This document shows positions 1,824-7,437 of a DNA stretch of 54,266 bases, one piece after another; the first letter of the stretch is position 1, and each line of letters starts with the position of its first letter. The position numbers were made by a program, and so were the translations under genes. The DNA lies in the NCBI GenBank assembly GCA_016206155.1, contig JACQSC010000001.1, positions 71,105 to 125,370 on the forward strand, in the 5' to 3' direction. The notes beneath the pieces were generated by a model that was not told the origin of the DNA, made no database searches, and worked only from the letters and a program-made list of their open reading frames with translations. Source of the DNA: Candidatus Uhrbacteria bacterium (GTDB lineage: Bacteria > Patescibacteriota > Patescibacteriia > JACQRZ01).

Positions 1824-1885
1824 GGGTATAGGGTATAGGGTATAGGGTGTAGCTGGAACTAAACCCTAAACCCTAAACCCTAAAC
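1824..1885. repeat. heptad-array hairpin: (GGGTATA)x4, loop, (CCCTAAA)x3.5
   Basis: gggtatagggtatagggtatagggtgtag ... aaaccctaaaccctaaaccctaaac. It starts 4 nt after the atpB stop. Confidence 0.9.
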
Positions 1886-1895
1886 GCTATTTAGT

Positions 1896-2150
1896 ATGGA
1901 AGAACAACTGAAGCTCATCGAAGCATCCGCAGAATGGGCAAAATTTCTCGGTCCAGCCCTCGCTATGGGATTGGGCGCGATCGGTCCAGGTATTGGTATC
2001 GGTATTTTGGTGGGTAAAGCGCTTGAGGCAATTGGCCGTAACCCGGAAGCCGCGGGCAAGATTCAGACTGTTATGATTCTGGGCATTGCGTTTACCGAGG
2101 CGATTGCGATTTATGCGCTGGTCATTGCCTTGTTGGTGAAGTTTGTCTAA
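1896..2150 (+). CDS. atpE: F0F1 ATP synthase subunit c
   Basis: 84 aa hairpin proteolipid with a GxGxGxG helix and the conserved carboxylate in [12 protein letters not shown]. Confidence 0.95.
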
Positions 2151-2183
2151 TTGGTTTGACAGGATGATCCTTTCTTTGGTCGG

Positions 2184-2275
2184 CGAATTACGAATCAAGA
2201 ATCAAGAATTAAGCACATAAAACATCGGCCCGAATTCATATTCGTAATTCTTAATTCGAAATTCTTAATTCTTCG
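2184..2275. repeat. heptad-array hairpin: (CGAATTA/AGAATCA)x4, then (TTAATTC-type)x4-5
   Basis: cgaattacgaatcaagaatcaagaattaag ... ttcgtaattcttaattcgaaattcttaattcttcg. Confidence 0.85.
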
Positions 2276-2321
2276 CATTGAAAACGGCAATGGTGAAAGG
2301 AGAGAAACGTATAAATCGTGT

Positions 2322-2819
2322 ATGGAGATATTGAGTAAATTAGGCATTGATTGGAGACTGCTCATTGCGCAGATTGTTAACTTCGCAATTCTTCTCGCAC
2401 TTCTCTACAAGTTTGCCTACAAGCCGTTGCTTGCGCTTCTTGAAAAGCGCGAGGCGATGATTGCAAAAAGCGTTGAAGATGCGCGGGCGATTGAAGAACG
2501 CCTGCAGCAAACAGAAAAGAGCGCGCAAGAGGTTTTGATGGGCGCGCGAAAAGAAGCCGCGGAGATTTTTGAGGCTGCAGAGCATACTGCCGAGCAGCGA
2601 AGAAAGCAGTCTTTAGAGAAGACAAAAGAGGACCTGCGCCAGATTGTCGAGCAGACGCGCATGATGCTTAAAAATGAAAAAGAAGCGATGGTGCAAGAAG
2701 CGCGAGCTGAGATTGCCCACATTGTTGTCCGGGCCACAGAGCGTGTACTGGCGGATGTTGCGCACGAAAAGGTGAATGATTCCCTTGTACAAAAAACTCT
2801 TGAAAAGATTACGGGATGA
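2322..2819 (+). CDS. atpF: F0F1 ATP synthase subunit b
   Basis: 165 aa with an N-terminal TM helix and a long charged helix. It sits between atpE and atpH. Confidence 0.9.
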   Translation: MEILSKLGIDWRLLIAQIVNFAILLALLYKFAYKPLLALLEKREAMIAKSVEDARAIEERLQQTEKSAQEVLMGARKEAAEIFEAAEHTAEQRRKQSLEKTKEDLRQIVEQTRMMLKNEKEAMVQEARAEIAHIVVRATERVLADVAHEKVNDSLVQKTLEKITG

Positions 2820-3217
2820 GGAAGCAAAACGCAAAACAATTTGCCTCTGCGCTTCGAGCATTGACGCGGGGAAAGAAAAAAAGTGAAATAGACACAATCG
2901 TTCGCTCGGTTGTAGGGCGTTACGGCGTTACCGGACAGATGAAGTTTCTTGCTCGCGTCTGGCACCAACTCCACGATATTTTGAATAGTGAGAAGGGGGT
3001 GGCGCGCGTTGCGGTCCGCGTTCCATCCTGCGATAAAAAGCGCAATCGAGCGTTGACCGGACAAATTGCAAAACAGGTCGGTCGCGACAGTGAGATTTCC
3101 ATCACAGAAGACCCCTCGCTCATTGCCGGCGCTGTTGTGACAGTAGGTGATAAGCGTTACGACGGCAGCGTTAAGGCGCGAATACGGCAGTTGAGGAAAC
3201 ACCTTCAAAGGAATTAA
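2816..3217 (+). CDS. atpH: F0F1 ATP synthase subunit delta (OSCP), short form
   Basis: 133 aa with an ATGA overlap onto atpF. The C-terminal IAGAVVTVGDKRYDGSVKARIRQL matches the OSCP signature region. The stop TAA lies inside the first GAATTAA heptad. Confidence 0.85.
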   Translation: MRKQNAKQFASALRALTRGKKKSEIDTIVRSVVGRYGVTGQMKFLARVWHQLHDILNSEKGVARVAVRVPSCDKKRNRALTGQIAKQVGRDSEISITEDPSLIAGAVVTVGDKRYDGSVKARIRQLRKHLQRN

Positions 3218-4872: not shown

Positions 4873-4942
4873 CTCGTAATCCGTAACTCGTAACTCGTAA
4901 AAAAATCATTACGGATTACGGATTACGGATTACGGATTACGA
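4873..4942. repeat. heptad-array hairpin: (CTCGTAA/TCCGTAA)x4, then (TTACGGA)x5
   Basis: ctcgtaatccgtaactcgtaactcgtaa aaaaatca ttacggattacggattacggattacggattacga. It starts 3 nt after the atpA stop and ends 3 nt before the atpG ATG. Confidence 0.9.
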
Positions 4943-4945
4943 TGT

Positions 4946-5872
4946 ATGAAAGGAACGTTACAGATACGCCGCCAGATCCGCTCAATCGGAAATACCAAAA
5001 AGATGACAAAGGCGATGGAGCTGGTATCTGCCGCAAAGATGCGAAAAGCGATTGTGGCGGTACTTGCGACCCGTCCGTATGCGACCTTTGCTCAGGATGT
5101 TTTGCGGTTTCTTGCCTCGCGTACCGTCGATGCGTCACGTCATCCGTTGCTTGAGGTGCGTGCCTTGCGCAAAGCGGGGTTTATCGTCATCAGTACGAAC
5201 AGGGGGCTGTGTGGTAGCTTCAACGCAACCCTGGCATCAACCGTGCGCCACGAAGTGACGCGCGCGAAAGAAGATGGCGCATCTTCCAGCGAGGCGCTGA
5301 GCATGGGCAAACGAGCACGTGACATTCTCGCCCGATCCGGGTTAAAGATTAGCGCTGATTTTTTAAAAAAAGACATGACGACAAGCATCATTGATGTATT
5401 GCCGCTTGCGCACACCATTATCGAGCGGTACGGAAAGGGCAACCTTGATCGTGTGTATGTGGCGTATACCGACTATATTTCATCCGTTAAGCAAAAACCT
5501 GTGTGTAAGCAATTACTCCCGCTTGAATTGGGGTCTGGCTCAGTTTCGCAAAGCGAATCTGTGCCTGACCCCAATTCAGTGTTACCAAGCTCCGAGGGCA
5601 GACATAAAGAATTTGCCGGCACGCTGTTCGAACCATCAGAAACTCAAGTACTCTCCTATGTTATACCTCGTCTTCTCGAGGTTCAGCTGTATCAGGCGGT
5701 GCTGGAGTCAGAGGCATCGGAGCACAGCGCGCGCATGCTTGCCATGCACAATGCCTCTGAGGCCGCAACTGATATTCTCTCTGAGCTCCGATTGGCCTAT
5801 AACCAGATTCGCCAGGCGGGCATTACGCAGGAGATCGCTGAGATCTCGAGCGGCAGAGCCGCGCTGGAATAG
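4946..5872 (+). CDS. atpG: F0F1 ATP synthase subunit gamma
   Basis: 308 aa. The N-terminal IRRQIRSIGNTKKMTKAMELVSAAKMRKA and the C-terminal LAYNQIRQAGITQEIAEISSG are both gamma hallmarks. Confidence 0.95.
   Translation: MKGTLQIRRQIRSIGNTKKMTKAMELVSAAKMRKAIVAVLATRPYATFAQDVLRFLASRTVDASRHPLLEVRALRKAGFIVISTNRGLCGSFNATLASTVRHEVTRAKEDGASSSEALSMGKRARDILARSGLKISADFLKKDMTTSIIDVLPLAHTIIERYGKGNLDRVYVAYTDYISSVKQKPVCKQLLPLELGSGSVSQSESVPDPNSVLPSSEGRHKEFAGTLFEPSETQVLSYVIPRLLEVQLYQAVLESEASEHSARMLAMHNASEAATDILSELRLAYNQIRQAGITQEIAEISSGRAALE
5525..5577. repeat. 53-nt imperfect palindrome translated in frame inside atpG (copy A of a palindromic element family)
   Basis: GAATTGGGGTCTGGCTCAGTTTCGC AAA GCGAATCTGTGCCTGACCCCAATTC. 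22 of 25 arm positions pair, with three T:T mismatches. It encodes ELGSGSVSQSESVPDPN. Confidence 0.85.
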
Positions 5873-5968
5873 AATTAAGAATTAAGAATCAAGAATTAAG
5901 GAAAAACGAATTGATGATGTCGCGAGATAGAGAACCGTAATTCTTAATTCTTGCTTCTTGATTCTTCG
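5872..5968. repeat. heptad-array hairpin: (GAATTAA/GAATCAA)x4, then (TTAATTC-type)x4
   Basis: gaattaagaattaagaatcaagaattaagg ... cgtaattcttaattcttgcttcttgattcttcg. It overlaps the last nt of the atpG stop. Confidence 0.9.
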
Positions 5969-6004
5969 GCGGAGGAAGGTTTATTCACATTAAGACATAA
6001 TACT

Positions 6005-7375
6005 ATGCATGCAAACACAGGCACAGTCAAACAAGTCATTGGTCCAGTCATCGATGTCGAATTTACAGATAGACTCCCCGGGCTTTTTCATGCTTTGGAG
6101 ATTGATAACAACGGTGAAAAGCTTGTCCTTGAGGTCCAACAGCACCTTGGCGGCAATCTCGTACGTACGATTGCCATGGGTCCTACAGAGGGACTTCAAA
6201 GAAACCGTGACGTGCATGATACCGAAAAGCCCATCATGGTTCCTGTTGGTAAGAGTACACAGGGGCGCATGTTTAATGTTTTTGGCGAGCCGATTGATGG
6301 AAAGGAAAAAGTTCTCGGAGAGAAAAAGCTGCCGATCCATCGCGACGCGCCCGCGTTCAAAGACCAATCAACAAAAATCGAGGTGTTTGAAACAGGTATC
6401 AAAGTAATCGATCTGATCTGTCCCTTTGTGAAGGGTGGAAAGGTGGGGCTGTTTGGTGGAGCCGGTGTCGGTAAGACGGTTGTCATTACCGAGCTCATCC
6501 ATAACATTGCGGCGGAACACGGCGGTTCATCGGTCTTTGCCGGTGTTGGTGAGCGTACGCGCGAGGGAAATGATCTCTATCACGAAATGAAAGATTCCGG
6601 TGTGCTTGATAAAACAACAATGGTCTTTGGCCAGATGAACGAACCGCCGGGCGCGCGCTTGCGCGTTGCGCTCAGCGCCCTAACAATGGCGGAGTATTTC
6701 CGCGACGAAGAGGGGCAGGACGTGTTGCTGTTCGTTGATAACATTTTTCGTTTTACGCAAGCCGGATCAGAGGTGTCCGCGCTCTTGGGGCGCATCCCTT
6801 CCGCAGTCGGATACCAACCGACCCTTGCAACCGAAATGGGACAGTTGCAAGAGCGCATTACCTCAACATCAAAAGGATCCATCACCTCGCTGCAGGCGGT
6901 GTATGTTCCGGCTGACGACATGACCGATCCCGCACCGGCAACGACATTCGGCCACCTTGACTCTACCGTGATACTCGCGCGGCCTCTGGCGGAGCTTGGC
7001 ATTTATCCTGCTGTTGATCCGCTTGATTCAAGCTCTACAATTCTTGATCCGCAAGTCGTTGGTGAGGAACATTACAGAACGGCACGGGAGGTCCAGCGGA
7101 TATTGCAGCGTTACAAGGATTTGCAGGATATCATCGCGATTCTTGGCATGGATGAACTGACTCCGGAAGACAAACTCACGGTATCCCGCGGGCGCAAGAT
7201 TCAACGATTTTGTTCACAGCCATTCTTTGTTGCCGAGACATTTACCGGTGTTTCCGGAAAGTATGTCTCGCTCAAAGAAACGATCCGAGGATTCCGCGAG
7301 ATTCTTGACGGCAAACACGATGAGAAGCCGGAGTCTGCGTTCTATATGAAAGGCACGATTGACGAGATAGAATAA
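6005..7375 (+). CDS. atpD: F0F1 ATP synthase subunit beta
   Basis: Walker A GGAGVGKT and the DELSEED-like region [10 protein letters not shown]. The ATG at 6005 ([15 protein letters not shown]) is preferred, because the track's TTG at 5951 lies inside the repeat array. Confidence 0.97.
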
Positions 7376-7378
7376 AAA

Positions 7379-7437
7379 GGGTATAGGGGTTAGGGTATAG
7401 GGTATAGTTTCAAACCCTGAACCCTGAACCATGAACC
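7379..7437. repeat. heptad-array hairpin: (GGGTATA/GGGGTTA)x4, then (CCCTGAA-type)x3.5
   Basis: gggtataggggttagggtatagggtatag ttt c aaaccctgaaccctgaaccatgaacc. It starts 3 nt after the atpD stop, and its right arm runs into the first atpC ATG. Confidence 0.9.

What the first reader, a model, noticed from the sequence alone, without database searches (positions are those of the whole stretch)
1824..7437. Every open intercistronic gap of the atp operon holds a hairpin built from about four tandem 7-nt units that starts at the stop codon
All six non-overlapping gaps of atpZBEFHAGDC share one architecture: about 4 tandem heptamers (28 nt), a loop, then about 4 heptamers of the approximate reverse complement.

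Three unrelated sequence families use it here:
- GGGTATA/CCCTAAA at 1824 and 7379
- GAATTAA/TTAATTC at 2184, 3211 and 5872
- CTCGTAA/TTACGGA at 4873

The same design recurs at 8317 (8-nt period), 16190 and 35801. Orphan arms occur at 19746, 20422, 29097 and 33718.

In 11 of 13 cases the array begins 0-6 nt after the upstream stop codon or contains it. atpH, der and topA terminate on a TAA supplied by the array. Because 7 is not a multiple of 3, the TAA or TAG in each GAATTAA, CTCGTAA or GGGTATA unit covers all three reading frames within 21 nt.

None has the U-tract of a canonical intrinsic terminator (compare 18207-18245). One mismatch per heptad recurs in the stems.

Conserved geometry with non-conserved sequence argues for selection on structure, or for a shared generating mechanism. 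Possible roles are intercistronic processing or stability elements that tune subunit stoichiometry, termination-coupled structures, or self-propagating elements that target stop codons.
Basis: seen in the sequence. Interest (0 to 1): 0.7.

Follow-up and report, generated by a model that had tools for sequence, protein, structure and literature searches.

The report
Heptamer-repeat hairpins between atp genes
Every gap of the ATP synthase operon of this uncultured groundwater bacterium (Candidatus Uhrbacteria) holds a hairpin whose two arms are each about four copies of a 7-base unit; this is a real, little-studied kind of repeat already seen in Xanthomonas and cyanobacteria, and its function is still unknown.

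Summary
The window has 20 period-7 arrays and none at periods 6 or 8-12; shuffles give 0.14. Nineteen of the 20 lie in the 7% of the window that is non-coding. All six open atp gaps hold an inverted pair that folds into a 25-30 bp imperfect stem. Eleven of 13 arrays touch a stop codon.

Four independent assemblies give identical arrays, so this is not an assembly artefact.

I found no sign of selection on RNA pairing:
- G·U and A·C mismatches are balanced.
- Stems shifted by 7 nt pair almost as well.

The "unrelated" families interconvert by concerted evolution. Stop codons are as common in the 3' arms as in the 5' arms.

Relatives at 72-84% AtpG identity carry other heptamers, GC-rich palindromes or nothing at the same junctions. 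However, two gaps evolve far more slowly than synonymous sites, and the hairpins are concentrated in the atp operon.

Closest precedent: heptanucleotide repeat pairs in Xanthomonas (four units, next to the stop codon, function unknown).

Best reading: palindromic elements derived from simple-sequence repeats, resembling REP elements, that become intercistronic mRNA stem-loops. RNase III or exonuclease "punctuation" of the mRNA is inferred, not shown.

The parts
1821..1892 (+). atpB-atpE gap hairpin. 5' arm (A)GGGTATA x4, 3-8 nt loop, 3' arm CTAAACC x4. It starts 4 nt after the atpB TGA and ends about 5 nt before the atpE ATG.
   Evidence: -35.1 kcal/mol, z -5.3; 25/33 complementary, A·A mismatch in each heptad. 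The 5' arm is a G3N4 x4 quadruplex motif. L132 has the same family and the same 3' flank at the orthologous gap.
2182..2278 (+). atpE-atpF gap hairpin. 5' arm GAATTAC GAATCAA GAATCAA GAATTAA, loop, 3' arm AATTCTT-type. It starts 33 nt after the atpE stop; about 46 nt of spacer precede atpF.
   Evidence: It is the weakest stem in the sense orientation (-19.9 against -28.3 kcal/mol antisense). The gap is 94-97% identical to L001 although synonymous sites are near saturation.
3207..3293 (+). atpH-atpA gap hairpin of the GAATTAA family. The first unit supplies the atpH TAA (3215-3217) and the last two codons.
   Evidence: z -7.1; AtpH is 2 residues longer than in relatives without hairpins; 90-95% identical to L001, which has lost about 10 nt of the 5' arm.
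4871..4944 (+). atpA-atpG gap hairpin. 5' arm yyCGTAA x4, 8-nt loop, 3' arm TTACGGA x4.9. It starts 3 nt after the TAG and ends 2 nt before the atpG ATG.
   Evidence: -30 kcal/mol, z -5.8; one C·A and one U·G per heptad. The 5' arm is identical over 27 nt to the single arm at 29097.
5869..5968 (+). atpG-atpD gap hairpin of the GAATTAA family. The atpG TAG (5870-5872) is fused to the array (TAGAATTAAG...); a 31-nt loop and about 38 nt of spacer precede atpD.
   Evidence: The AtpG C-terminus is identical in relatives without the element.
7377..7442 (+). atpD-atpC gap hairpin. 5' arm GGGTATA/GGGGTTA x4, 3' arm AACCCTG/AACCATG x3.6. The 3' arm contains the atpC start codon(s) at 7431 and 7440.
   Evidence: -24.1 kcal/mol, z -2.7; quadruplex motif.
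8317..8398 (+). Hairpin with an 8/16-nt period (AAGGTTAG...) in the lexA leader, directly after a promoter-like site and a LexA box. It does not follow a stop codon.
   Evidence: TTGACA-17-TAGGAT at 8290-8318; Peptidase_S24 protein at 8419-8988.
16188..16273 (+). Hairpin between the ORF 15804-16190 and the pilC-like (T2SSF) gene. 5' arm GGGTGCA GGGTAGA GGGTACA GGGTATA; 3' arm CCCTAAC x6.7. The upstream TAG is the first triplet of the stem and the ATG follows within 3 nt.
35797..35888 (-). GAATTAA-family hairpin between rubredoxin (stop 35884-35886) and peroxiredoxin (start 35792), both on the minus strand. The TAG is fused to the array, as at atpG.
   Evidence: (z -7.1).
19743..19772 (+). Single arm (CTTTCAA) x3.6 with no partner, 2-5 nt after the prepilin-peptidase stop. 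If the ATG at 19730 is the true start, it lies inside the leader of a pilin-like ORF (21 nt = 7 codons).
20420..20456 (+). Single G-rich arm (AGGGTAT x5) that fills the whole 41-nt gap between the pilin-like gene's stop and the glycosyltransferase start.
29094..29123 (+). Single arm of the CGTAA family. It contains the der (engA) TAA at 29108-29110 and ends 2 nt before the pth ATG.
   Evidence: (27 nt identical to 4873-4899).
33717..33749 (+). Single arm (TAACTCG) x4 that contains the topA TAA at 33726-33728. The neighbouring gene converges on it.

Best explanation
**What it is (shown).** These are small palindromic repeat elements. Each arm is a short tandem array (about 4 units, about 28 nt) of a heptanucleotide. 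They are the counterpart, in the Candidate Phyla Radiation (CPR), of the heptanucleotide simple-sequence-repeat (SSR) pairs described in Xanthomonas. They sit at gene junctions, flush with the ancestral stop codon, inside co-directional gene clusters.

**How they arise (inferred).**
- Arrays grow and are homogenised in 7-nt steps by slippage or unequal exchange, so a variant unit can sweep through an arm and create a 'new family'.
- Whole arms are occasionally copied to other junctions.
- In a genome that is 93% coding, only copies at gene boundaries survive.

**What they most likely do (inferred, not shown).** They are co-transcribed with the operon, so each folds into a 25-30 bp imperfect stem-loop immediately after the stop codon. 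I propose that they punctuate the polycistronic mRNA. They would serve as substrates for the double-strand-specific RNase III and/or as barriers to 3'-to-5' exonucleases. This would give the atp cistrons different stabilities and translation rates in an organism that shows no Shine-Dalgarno sequences.
For: **Identity as heptamer-SSR palindromes**
- Period 7 only, almost all intergenic, arms of 3.1-4.9 units in the atp gaps (3.1-6.7 over all arrays).
- The same design occurs with other heptamers in L001, L002, L132, L043, L165-L167 and Peribacteria L011/L020.
- Twenty-five of 30 hairpins have the purine-rich arm first, the 'convergent' arrangement reported for Xanthomonas (PMC4692102).

**Slippage and concerted evolution**
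- The B-E arrays of the window, L132 and L001 align in heptad phase while the unit sequence differs.
- L001 has lost about 10 nt (1.5 units) of the 5' arm at H-A.
- The G-D gap has 2 units in L016 and 5 in L132.

**Copying between sites**
- 27 identical nt, including a variant unit, at 4873 and 29097.

**Placement at the ancestral stop**
- C-termini are conserved in relatives without hairpins.

**Pointers to function**
- All 6 atp gaps are among the 9 hairpin-bearing gaps out of 28 co-directional gaps of at least 15 nt (hypergeometric P = 2e-4).
- Peribacteria also carry these hairpins in atp gaps.
- The E-F and H-A gaps are 90-97% identical to L001, while coding DNA is 65-83% identical (atpE 91%) and the proportion of synonymous differences (pS) is 0.37-0.75. 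The identity peaks are confined to the gaps plus about 30 nt of the next gene.
- Arrays are invariant in four samples.
- No Shine-Dalgarno motif precedes any gene.

**RNase III precedent**
- The transcribed (ATCTTTC)n hairpin of H. influenzae hmw1 is cut by RNase III (PMC12721329).
- In L166, a 23S-rRNA-IVS-protein gene lies between the two arms of a heptad hairpin.
Against: - There is no RNA-level signature. G·U against A·C is 14:16, the antisense strand would fold better overall, and there is no register-specific pairing.
- Turnover is rapid. At the A-G junction, genomes with 72-84% AtpG identity to the window carry CGTAA hairpins, AGCTTG hairpins, GC-rich REP-like palindromes or 6-26 nt of nothing. 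The element is therefore dispensable for the operon.
- Stems that end 2-5 nt before, or overlap, the next start codon should inhibit independent initiation.
- No RNase III gene and no mobilising enzyme was seen in the 54 kb.
- No transcript data were available.
- The window-L001 conservation rests on one genome pair, and the A-G gap is no better conserved than its flanks.
Confidence: 0.4

Rival explanations
1. Selfish or neutral DNA. The hairpins are REP- or MITE-like palindromes, or simple by-products of a slippage-prone replication/repair system, with no benefit to the cell. Their position next to stop codons only reflects where an insertion is tolerated in a genome that is 93% coding.
For: - Distribution among close relatives is patchy and turnover is fast.
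- Pairing is equal on both strands.
- Stems are degenerate in register.
- Arms are copied between sites and also occur singly.
- A second, GC-rich palindrome family occupies similar junctions and even supplies the atpZ stop and the atpB start.
- GAATTAA/GAATTAT-type arrays are abundant in unrelated phage-like contigs, next to IS256-like and Mu-like transposase genes.
Against: - The E-F and H-A gaps evolve 5-20 times more slowly than synonymous sites.
- There is no copy-number variation in four samples.
- Concentration in the atp operon: 6 of 6 gaps, P = 2e-4.
- Arm length is narrow, around 4 units, in all families.
- No target-site duplication and no transposase were found in the window.
Confidence: 0.3
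2. Translation device. The stem loops out the gap so that the stop and the next start lie side by side. The terminating ribosome melts the base of the stem and re-initiates (coupling). Alternatively, the pyrimidine-rich 3' arm is a binding site for S1 or a cold-shock-type protein that supports initiation without a Shine-Dalgarno sequence, as proposed for TAACTGA repeats in Beggiatoaceae.
For: - In 5 of 9 hairpins the stem begins no more than 6 nt after the stop and ends no more than 7 nt before, or over, the next ATG. The same holds in L002 D-C and L001 A-G.
- No Shine-Dalgarno sequences occur in the window.
- The pyrimidine-rich arm is always the one nearest the start.
- MacGregor 2015 reports heptamer repeats directly upstream of starts in genomes poor in Shine-Dalgarno sequences (PMC4679880).
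Against: - GAATTAA-family hairpins leave 38-48 nt before the next start.
- Coupling cannot raise the c subunit (atpE) above the a subunit (atpB).
- Relatives manage with 6-45 nt plain gaps.
- No binding protein has been identified.
Confidence: 0.12
3. DNA-level structure or protein site. The elements form G-quadruplex, i-motif or cruciform structures, or are repeated binding sites for a nucleoid or topology protein (as E. coli BIMEs bind IHF and gyrase).
For: - The three GGGT 5' arms and the C-rich arm of the 16188-16273 hairpin are the only quadruplex motifs in 54 kb. They match the Xanthomonas/Nostoc GGGNATC class, which forms quadruplexes in vitro.
- Each unit has a conserved 4-5 nt core plus 2 variable positions.
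- Pairing is symmetrical between the strands.
Against: The GAATTAA, CGTAA, AGCTTG, AGTGA and CGAAAT families have the same four-unit geometry without any G-tracts, so quadruplexes cannot explain the class. No candidate protein is known.
Confidence: 0.06
4. Transcription terminators or attenuators inside the operon.
For: Long stable stems lie directly after stop codons.
Against: - None has a U-tract and none is picked up by the terminator scan.
- The genome does use canonical terminators (18207-18245).
- Six strong terminators inside an essential operon would abolish expression of the distal genes.
Confidence: 0.03

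Closest known systems
Heptameric G-rich SSRs of Xanthomonas (GGGAATC) and Nostoc (GGGGAYT), including convergent inverted pairs (Rehm et al. 2015, PMC4692102)
   Same: [quoted passage not shown]
- 89-93% intergenic, mostly between co-directional ORFs.
[quoted passage not shown]
- 70-75 pairs in convergent orientation that can form stem-loops.
- Repeat length and sequence vary between sister species.
- Transcribed; function unknown.
- The GGGTATA family here is of the same G3N4 type.
   Different: - Here at least three to four heptamer families coexist in one genome, and most cannot form quadruplexes.
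- The hairpin form is the rule (9 of 13 sites).
- One operon is saturated with them.
- The host is a CPR bacterium with a tiny, compact genome that lacks Shine-Dalgarno sequences.
Other bacterial heptanucleotide repeats: cyanobacterial STRR, TAACTGA repeats of Beggiatoaceae/Cyanobacteria/Bacteroidetes (MacGregor 2015, PMC4679880), and the general excess of heptanucleotide long SSRs (Mrazek 2007, as cited there)
   Same: - Period 7.
- Intergenic, often abutting start codons.
- Sporadic phylogenetic distribution.
- Genomes with few Shine-Dalgarno sequences.
- Origin by polymerase slippage has been proposed.
   Different: Those are almost always direct repeats (only 1 indirect repeat among 170 TAACTGA sets) of one dominant heptamer. 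Here complementary arrays are paired.
REP/BIME elements of enterobacteria and pseudomonads
   Same: - Short, imperfect extragenic palindromes in families.
- Located inside operons after stop codons and transcribed.
- From my own knowledge: known to stabilise upstream mRNA and, when within 15 nt of a stop codon, to affect translation termination.
   Different: REPs have no internal tandem periodicity, are GC-rich, and are mobilised by RAYT transposases. No RAYT was seen here, although only 54 kb was examined.
RNase III processing hairpins: the phage T7 early intercistronic sites (my own knowledge) and the H. influenzae hmw1 5'-UTR (ATCTTTC)n hairpin (PMC12721329)
   Same: - Imperfect double-stranded RNA stems of at least 20 bp in a transcript.
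- In T7, one stem lies between each pair of cistrons.
- In hmw1, one arm is a heptamer SSR.
   Different: Cleavage has not been tested here. T7 sites are not built of tandem units.
MITEs (for example Correia elements)
   Same: - 60-100 nt long, with inverted ends.
- Multi-copy and intergenic.
- Co-transcribed; Correia elements are RNase III targets (my own knowledge).
   Different: - No target-site duplication and no conserved internal sequence. Loops and flanks are unrelated between copies.
- Single arms also occur.

Membership tests
Heptanucleotide SSR pairs (Xanthomonas/Nostoc type, Rehm 2015) | Tandem head-to-tail units of 7 nt, at least 2 units, with a mode of four | tested here: met
   20 arrays of 3.1-6.7 units, most 3.6-4.9.
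Heptanucleotide SSR pairs (Xanthomonas/Nostoc type, Rehm 2015) | Strong intergenic bias, nearer to the upstream ORF's stop, between co-directional ORFs | tested here: met
   (19/20 arrays intergenic in 7% non-coding DNA). (11/13 at the stop). All 9 hairpins lie between co-directional genes.
Heptanucleotide SSR pairs (Xanthomonas/Nostoc type, Rehm 2015) | Two arrays in convergent orientation that can form a stem-loop | tested here: met
   purine- or G-rich arm first in 25/30 hairpins.
Heptanucleotide SSR pairs (Xanthomonas/Nostoc type, Rehm 2015) | G-rich unit (GGGNATC-like) giving four G-tracts that can form a G-quadruplex | tested here: inconclusive
   met by the GGGT arms at 1824, 7379 and 16190 only. 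The GAATTAA and CGTAA families have no G-tracts.
REP/BIME | Imperfect extragenic palindrome present in many copies of one sequence family | tested here: met
   4 GAATTAA, 4 GGGT and 3 CGTAA copies in 54 kb. Similarity is limited to the arms.
REP/BIME | Associated RAYT (IS200/IS605-like tyrosine transposase) in the genome | not testable with these tools
   None was found among the window's ORFs scanned with Pfam. The rest of the genome is not available.
MITE | Terminal inverted repeats flanked by a target-site duplication | tested here: not met
   Direct inspection of the flanks. TA...TA flanks only the element at 35798-35887. No duplication is present at the B-E, H-A or A-G elements.
Intrinsic (Rho-independent) terminator | GC-rich stem followed by a U-tract | tested here: not met
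   One search finds no site at any atp gap. Contrast with 18207-18245.
Integron attC site | Imperfect palindrome after a cassette ORF with R''/R' core sites (RYYYAAC ... GTTRRRY) | tested here: not met
   By direct reading I saw no GTTRRRY at the 3' boundary of the B-E and A-G hairpins. No pattern search was run and the other hairpins were not checked. The atp genes are not cassettes.
RNase III intercistronic processing site | Double-stranded RNA stem of at least about 20 bp between cistrons | tested here: met
   23-28 paired positions out of 30-35.
RNase III intercistronic processing site | Cleavage by RNase III in vivo or in vitro | not testable with these tools
   No transcript data were available, and rnc is not in the window.
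Any curated RNA family (Rfam 15) | Match at the gathering score | tested here: not met
   One search finds only tRNA-Val. One search finds only sub-threshold matches to eukaryotic miRNA-precursor hairpins.

The most novel reading that the evidence does not exclude
Heptad hairpins are a general, interchangeable 'operon punctuation' system of CPR bacteria that lack Shine-Dalgarno sequences. On this reading, self-renewing SSR palindromes seed at stop codons. Cells exploit them, through RNase III-type processing or hairpin-bridged re-initiation, to set subunit stoichiometry in operons such as atp. The preference for four units, shared with Xanthomonas, would then reflect a minimal double-stranded RNA length of about 28 bp rather than G-quadruplex formation.
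Probability: 0.2. Interest if true: 0.75.

Novelty: new variant of a known kind. Interest (0 to 1): 0.5.

Why it matters
Heptanucleotide repeats are the commonest long simple-sequence repeats in prokaryotes, and no function has been established for them.

This locus offers a clean natural test case:
- One essential operon with unequal subunit stoichiometry.
- Every gap filled by a hairpin of the same geometry but different sequence.
- Close relatives that carry other heptamers, GC-rich palindromes or nothing at the same junctions.

Non-G-rich families keep the four-unit size. This argues that the 'four units' rule reported in Xanthomonas is not explained by G-quadruplexes.

If the hairpins are processed, they would show how organisms without Shine-Dalgarno sequences tune expression within operons. 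If they are not, they show how selfish palindromes colonise stop codons in minimal genomes and end up supplying stop and start codons.

Tried and rejected
- **Terminators.** No U-tracts; the scan is negative.
- **Known RNA families.** Nothing at the gathering score; only miRNA-like sub-threshold hits.
- **Assembly artefact.** Rejected: four independent assemblies are identical. Those contigs break at the GC-rich palindrome near 1045, not at the heptads.
- **Phase-variable SSR.** No copy-number differences among the four samples.
- **RNA-level selection.** Sense against antisense folding, G·U against A·C counts and shifted-register tests were all negative.
- **Stops in all three frames as a selected feature.** Equally frequent in the 3' arms.
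- **Target-site duplication (TA).** Seen at one element only.
- **attC and TIGR/CRISPR-like arrays.** Wrong anatomy.
- **Mobilising enzyme or rnc in the window.** None among about 50 ORFs scanned.
- **Named phage relatives of array-rich viral contigs.** Megablast of L116 found nothing.
- **Primary papers of Mazel 1990 and Mrazek 2007.** Not held; cited second-hand.
- **Extending the census beyond the window.** One end was not on record; the other gave only 2.5 kb with no arrays.
- **Literature on CPR heptad repeats.** None found.

Full report
**Source.** The window (46.6% G+C) belongs to a Candidatus Uhrbacteria (Patescibacteria/CPR) genome. The nearest species-representative genome is the groundwater MAG JACQWH01 (locus L001), with AtpG 81-84% identical. 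Positions 813-7874 encode atpZ-B-E-F-H-A-G-D-C. Z/B and F/H overlap by 4 nt, which leaves six open gaps.

**The observation.**
- Tandem Repeats Finder lists paired period-7 arrays in each open gap.
- A simple period scan finds 20 arrays at period 7, none at periods 6 or 8-12, and 2 at period 5. Block shuffles give 0.14 arrays on average.
- Nineteen of 20 arrays are intergenic or overlap a gene end, in a window that is about 93% coding.
- Each gap folds into one long imperfect stem (-24 to -38 kcal/mol). Z-scores are -2.7 to -7.1, except for the whole 171-nt E-F gap.
- In-register alignment of the arms gives 19-28 complementary positions out of 30-35.
- The further hairpins (8317, 16188, 35797) and the single arms (19743, 20420, 29094, 33717) are as described.
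- Eleven of 13 arrays touch or lie within 6 nt of a stop codon. atpH, der and topA end on a TAA inside an array.
- One correction: the element at 35800 lies between two minus-strand genes, rubredoxin and peroxiredoxin. There it shows the same fusion, TAG-AATTAAG, as at atpG.
- Contigs assembled independently from four sequencing runs are 99.95-100% identical over 1043-3860, arrays included. The arrays are therefore neither artefacts nor hypervariable.

**Sister genomes.** The design recurs, but patchily.
- L001 keeps the same elements at E-F, H-A and A-G. At B-E it has (TAGCTTG)4/(CTATAAC)n.
- L002 (AtpG 56%) has AGTGAxx, CGAAATx and GAGTGAx/CACTCYA hairpins at B-E, A-G and D-C, again running from stop to start.
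- L132 (63%) has the window's GGGTRTA/CTAAACG family at B-E with the same 3' flank, plus a five-unit single arm that fills the G-D gap.
- L165 and L166 (82%) have AGCTTG/CAAGCTA hairpins at A-G. L167 (74%) has an ATTTGCA-type hairpin at H-A.
- L168 and L170 have GC-rich palindromes at A-G. L169, L131 and L016 have plain gaps of 6-47 nt.
- Most relatives at 35-69% identity have no period-7 arrays at all.
- Peribacteria (L011, L020) carry GAATTAA-type hairpins in their atp gaps.
- AtpG identities among the window, L001, L165 and L166 are star-like at 79-84%. The A-G junction has therefore changed occupant several times within a shallow clade.

**How the arrays evolve.**
- The B-E arrays of the window (AGGGTAT), L132 (AGGGTGT, with one AGCGTAT unit) and L001 (AGCTTGT) align in heptad phase. 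A 'family swap' can thus be concerted change of one array rather than replacement.
- L001 has lost about 10 nt (1.5 units) from the H-A 5' arm.
- The G-D gap holds two AAGATTx units in L016 and five in L132.
- Copying between sites also happens. Positions 4873-4899 and 29097-29123 are identical over 27 nt, including the variant unit TCCGTAA.
- Similarity between copies stops at the arms. Loops and flanks are site-specific.
- No target-site duplication is evident.

**Why at stop codons.**
- The C-termini of AtpA and AtpG are unchanged in relatives without hairpins. AtpB differs by at most one residue.
- AtpH is two residues longer, with the extra codons and the TAA read from the array.
- At H-A and G-D, the spacer left downstream of the hairpin (about 38-47 nt) equals the whole gap of relatives without hairpins. 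The element therefore sits at the very 5' edge of the old gap.
- The association with the stop codon is real, but the 'stops in three frames' argument is not specific. 3' arms contain stops about as often as 5' arms.

**Tests for RNA-level selection.**
- Folding sense and antisense RNAs of 17 hairpins gives -430 against -469 kcal/mol in total, with 29 against 45 G·U pairs.
- In-register alignments give 14 G·U against 16 A·C.
- Registers shifted by +/-7 nt pair almost as well as the best register.
- There is therefore no strand-specific or unit-specific compensation. Complementarity exists at the level of the unit family only.
- One asymmetry does exist. In 25 of 30 hairpins the purine-rich arm comes first. 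Because the element is a palindrome, this holds on both strands.

**Pointers to function.**
- Between the window and L001, synonymous sites are close to saturation (pS 0.37-0.75, dS 0.5 to over 2) and coding DNA is 65-83% identical (atpE 91%).
- Yet the E-F gap is 94-97% identical and the H-A gap 90-95% identical. The identity peaks are confined to the gaps plus about 30 nt of the next gene.
- The A-G gap is no better conserved than its flanks, and B-E is only 63% identical.
- All six atp gaps are among the nine hairpin-bearing gaps out of 28 co-directional gaps of at least 15 nt (P = 2e-4).
- No gene in the window has a Shine-Dalgarno motif.
- In five of nine hairpins the stem spans the gap exactly from stop to start. 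At D-C the atpC ATG lies in the 3' arm.

**Literature.**
- Rehm et al. 2015 (PMC4692102) describe GGGAATC repeats in Xanthomonas. They prefer four units, are 89-93% intergenic, lie mostly between co-directional ORFs, sit within 0-50 nt of the stop or overlap it, and form 70-75 convergent pairs able to make stem-loops. They are transcribed, and their function is unknown.
- Heptanucleotide repeats are the most abundant long SSR class in prokaryotes, and a polymerase-slippage origin has been proposed (Mrazek 2007, as summarised in PMC4679880).
- TAACTGA repeats abut start codons in Beggiatoaceae that have few Shine-Dalgarno sequences.
- A transcribed heptamer-SSR hairpin in H. influenzae hmw1 is cleaved by RNase III (PMC12721329).
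- I found nothing on such elements in CPR bacteria.

**Conclusion.** The elements are heptanucleotide-SSR palindromes, a new variant of a known but unexplained class: several mostly non-G-rich families, with the hairpin form dominant, in a new phylum.
- Their anatomy, evolution by slippage plus copying, and placement at stop codons are shown.
- Their effect is inferred. The most likely role is as intercistronic mRNA stem-loops that serve as RNase III or exonuclease punctuation (confidence about 0.4).
- The main rival is that they are tolerated selfish DNA (about 0.3).

Noticed in passing
window 1045-1071, 26652-26678, 35176-35202: A second palindromic repeat family, GC-rich: CTGGATYCCGSCCTWCGSCGGRATGAC. 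The first copy encodes the last residues and the stop of atpZ and contains the atpB ATG. Similar palindromes fill atp gaps in relatives (L016 D-C, L168 A-G, L167 G-D). Independent Logan contigs break at the copy at 1045.
   Followed up: partly
window 8290-8318: A promoter-like site, TTGACA-17-TAGGAT, encloses a perfect GAAC-N4-GTTC box (GAACGATTGTTC, about 8299-8310) upstream of the LexA-like gene at 8419-8988. This suggests autoregulation. The 8-nt-period hairpin follows directly.
   Followed up: partly
whole window (35 nt upstream of 53 starts): No Shine-Dalgarno-like motif precedes any gene. Many junctions overlap by 4 nt (ATGA).
   Followed up: partly
L166 957-1388: In a relative with 82% AtpG identity, a gene of the 23S-rRNA-intervening-sequence protein family (PF05635) sits between atpG and atpD. 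It is flanked by the two arms of an AGCTTG-type heptad hairpin (an inverted repeat of at least 24 bp). The 3' arm supplies the gene's stop.
   Followed up: partly
L050-L125 (IMG/VR contigs), e.g. L071, L100, L103, L116: GAATTAA/GAATTAT/GAGTTAT-type heptamer arrays, some as hairpins, are abundant in unrelated phage-like contigs of 26-64% G+C (up to 18 arrays in 12.7 kb). They lie next to terminase, portal, Mu-like and IS256-like genes (identified by reading the translations, not by a family search). In L103 they directly abut start codons.
   Followed up: partly
window 1859-1889 and 16221-16270: The 3' arms are (CCCTAAA)4 and CCCTAA/CCCCTAA runs, identical to plant- and vertebrate-type telomere repeats on the opposite strand. 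They give sub-threshold Rfam hits to the mir-1502 precursor on both strands. This could trigger false eukaryote-contamination or miRNA flags.
   Followed up: yes
window 19730-19800: The (CTTTCAA)3.6 array would encode FNFQLSTF inside an unusually long (about 23-residue) leader of a pilin-like protein (N_methyl motif at residues 19-43), if the ATG at 19730 is the true start.
   Followed up: no
window 46583-46658, 53172-53211, 54178-54247: Near-perfect 21-nt tandem repeats (3.6, 1.9 and 3.3 copies) lie inside methyltransferase and rhamnan-synthesis-like coding regions. They are in-frame 7-residue repeats.
   Followed up: no
L016 3387-3536 and L132 E-F gap: Relatives without heptad hairpins share a different, conserved, long stem-loop without heptad periodicity (-39 kcal/mol) in the atpE-atpF gap.
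   Followed up: no
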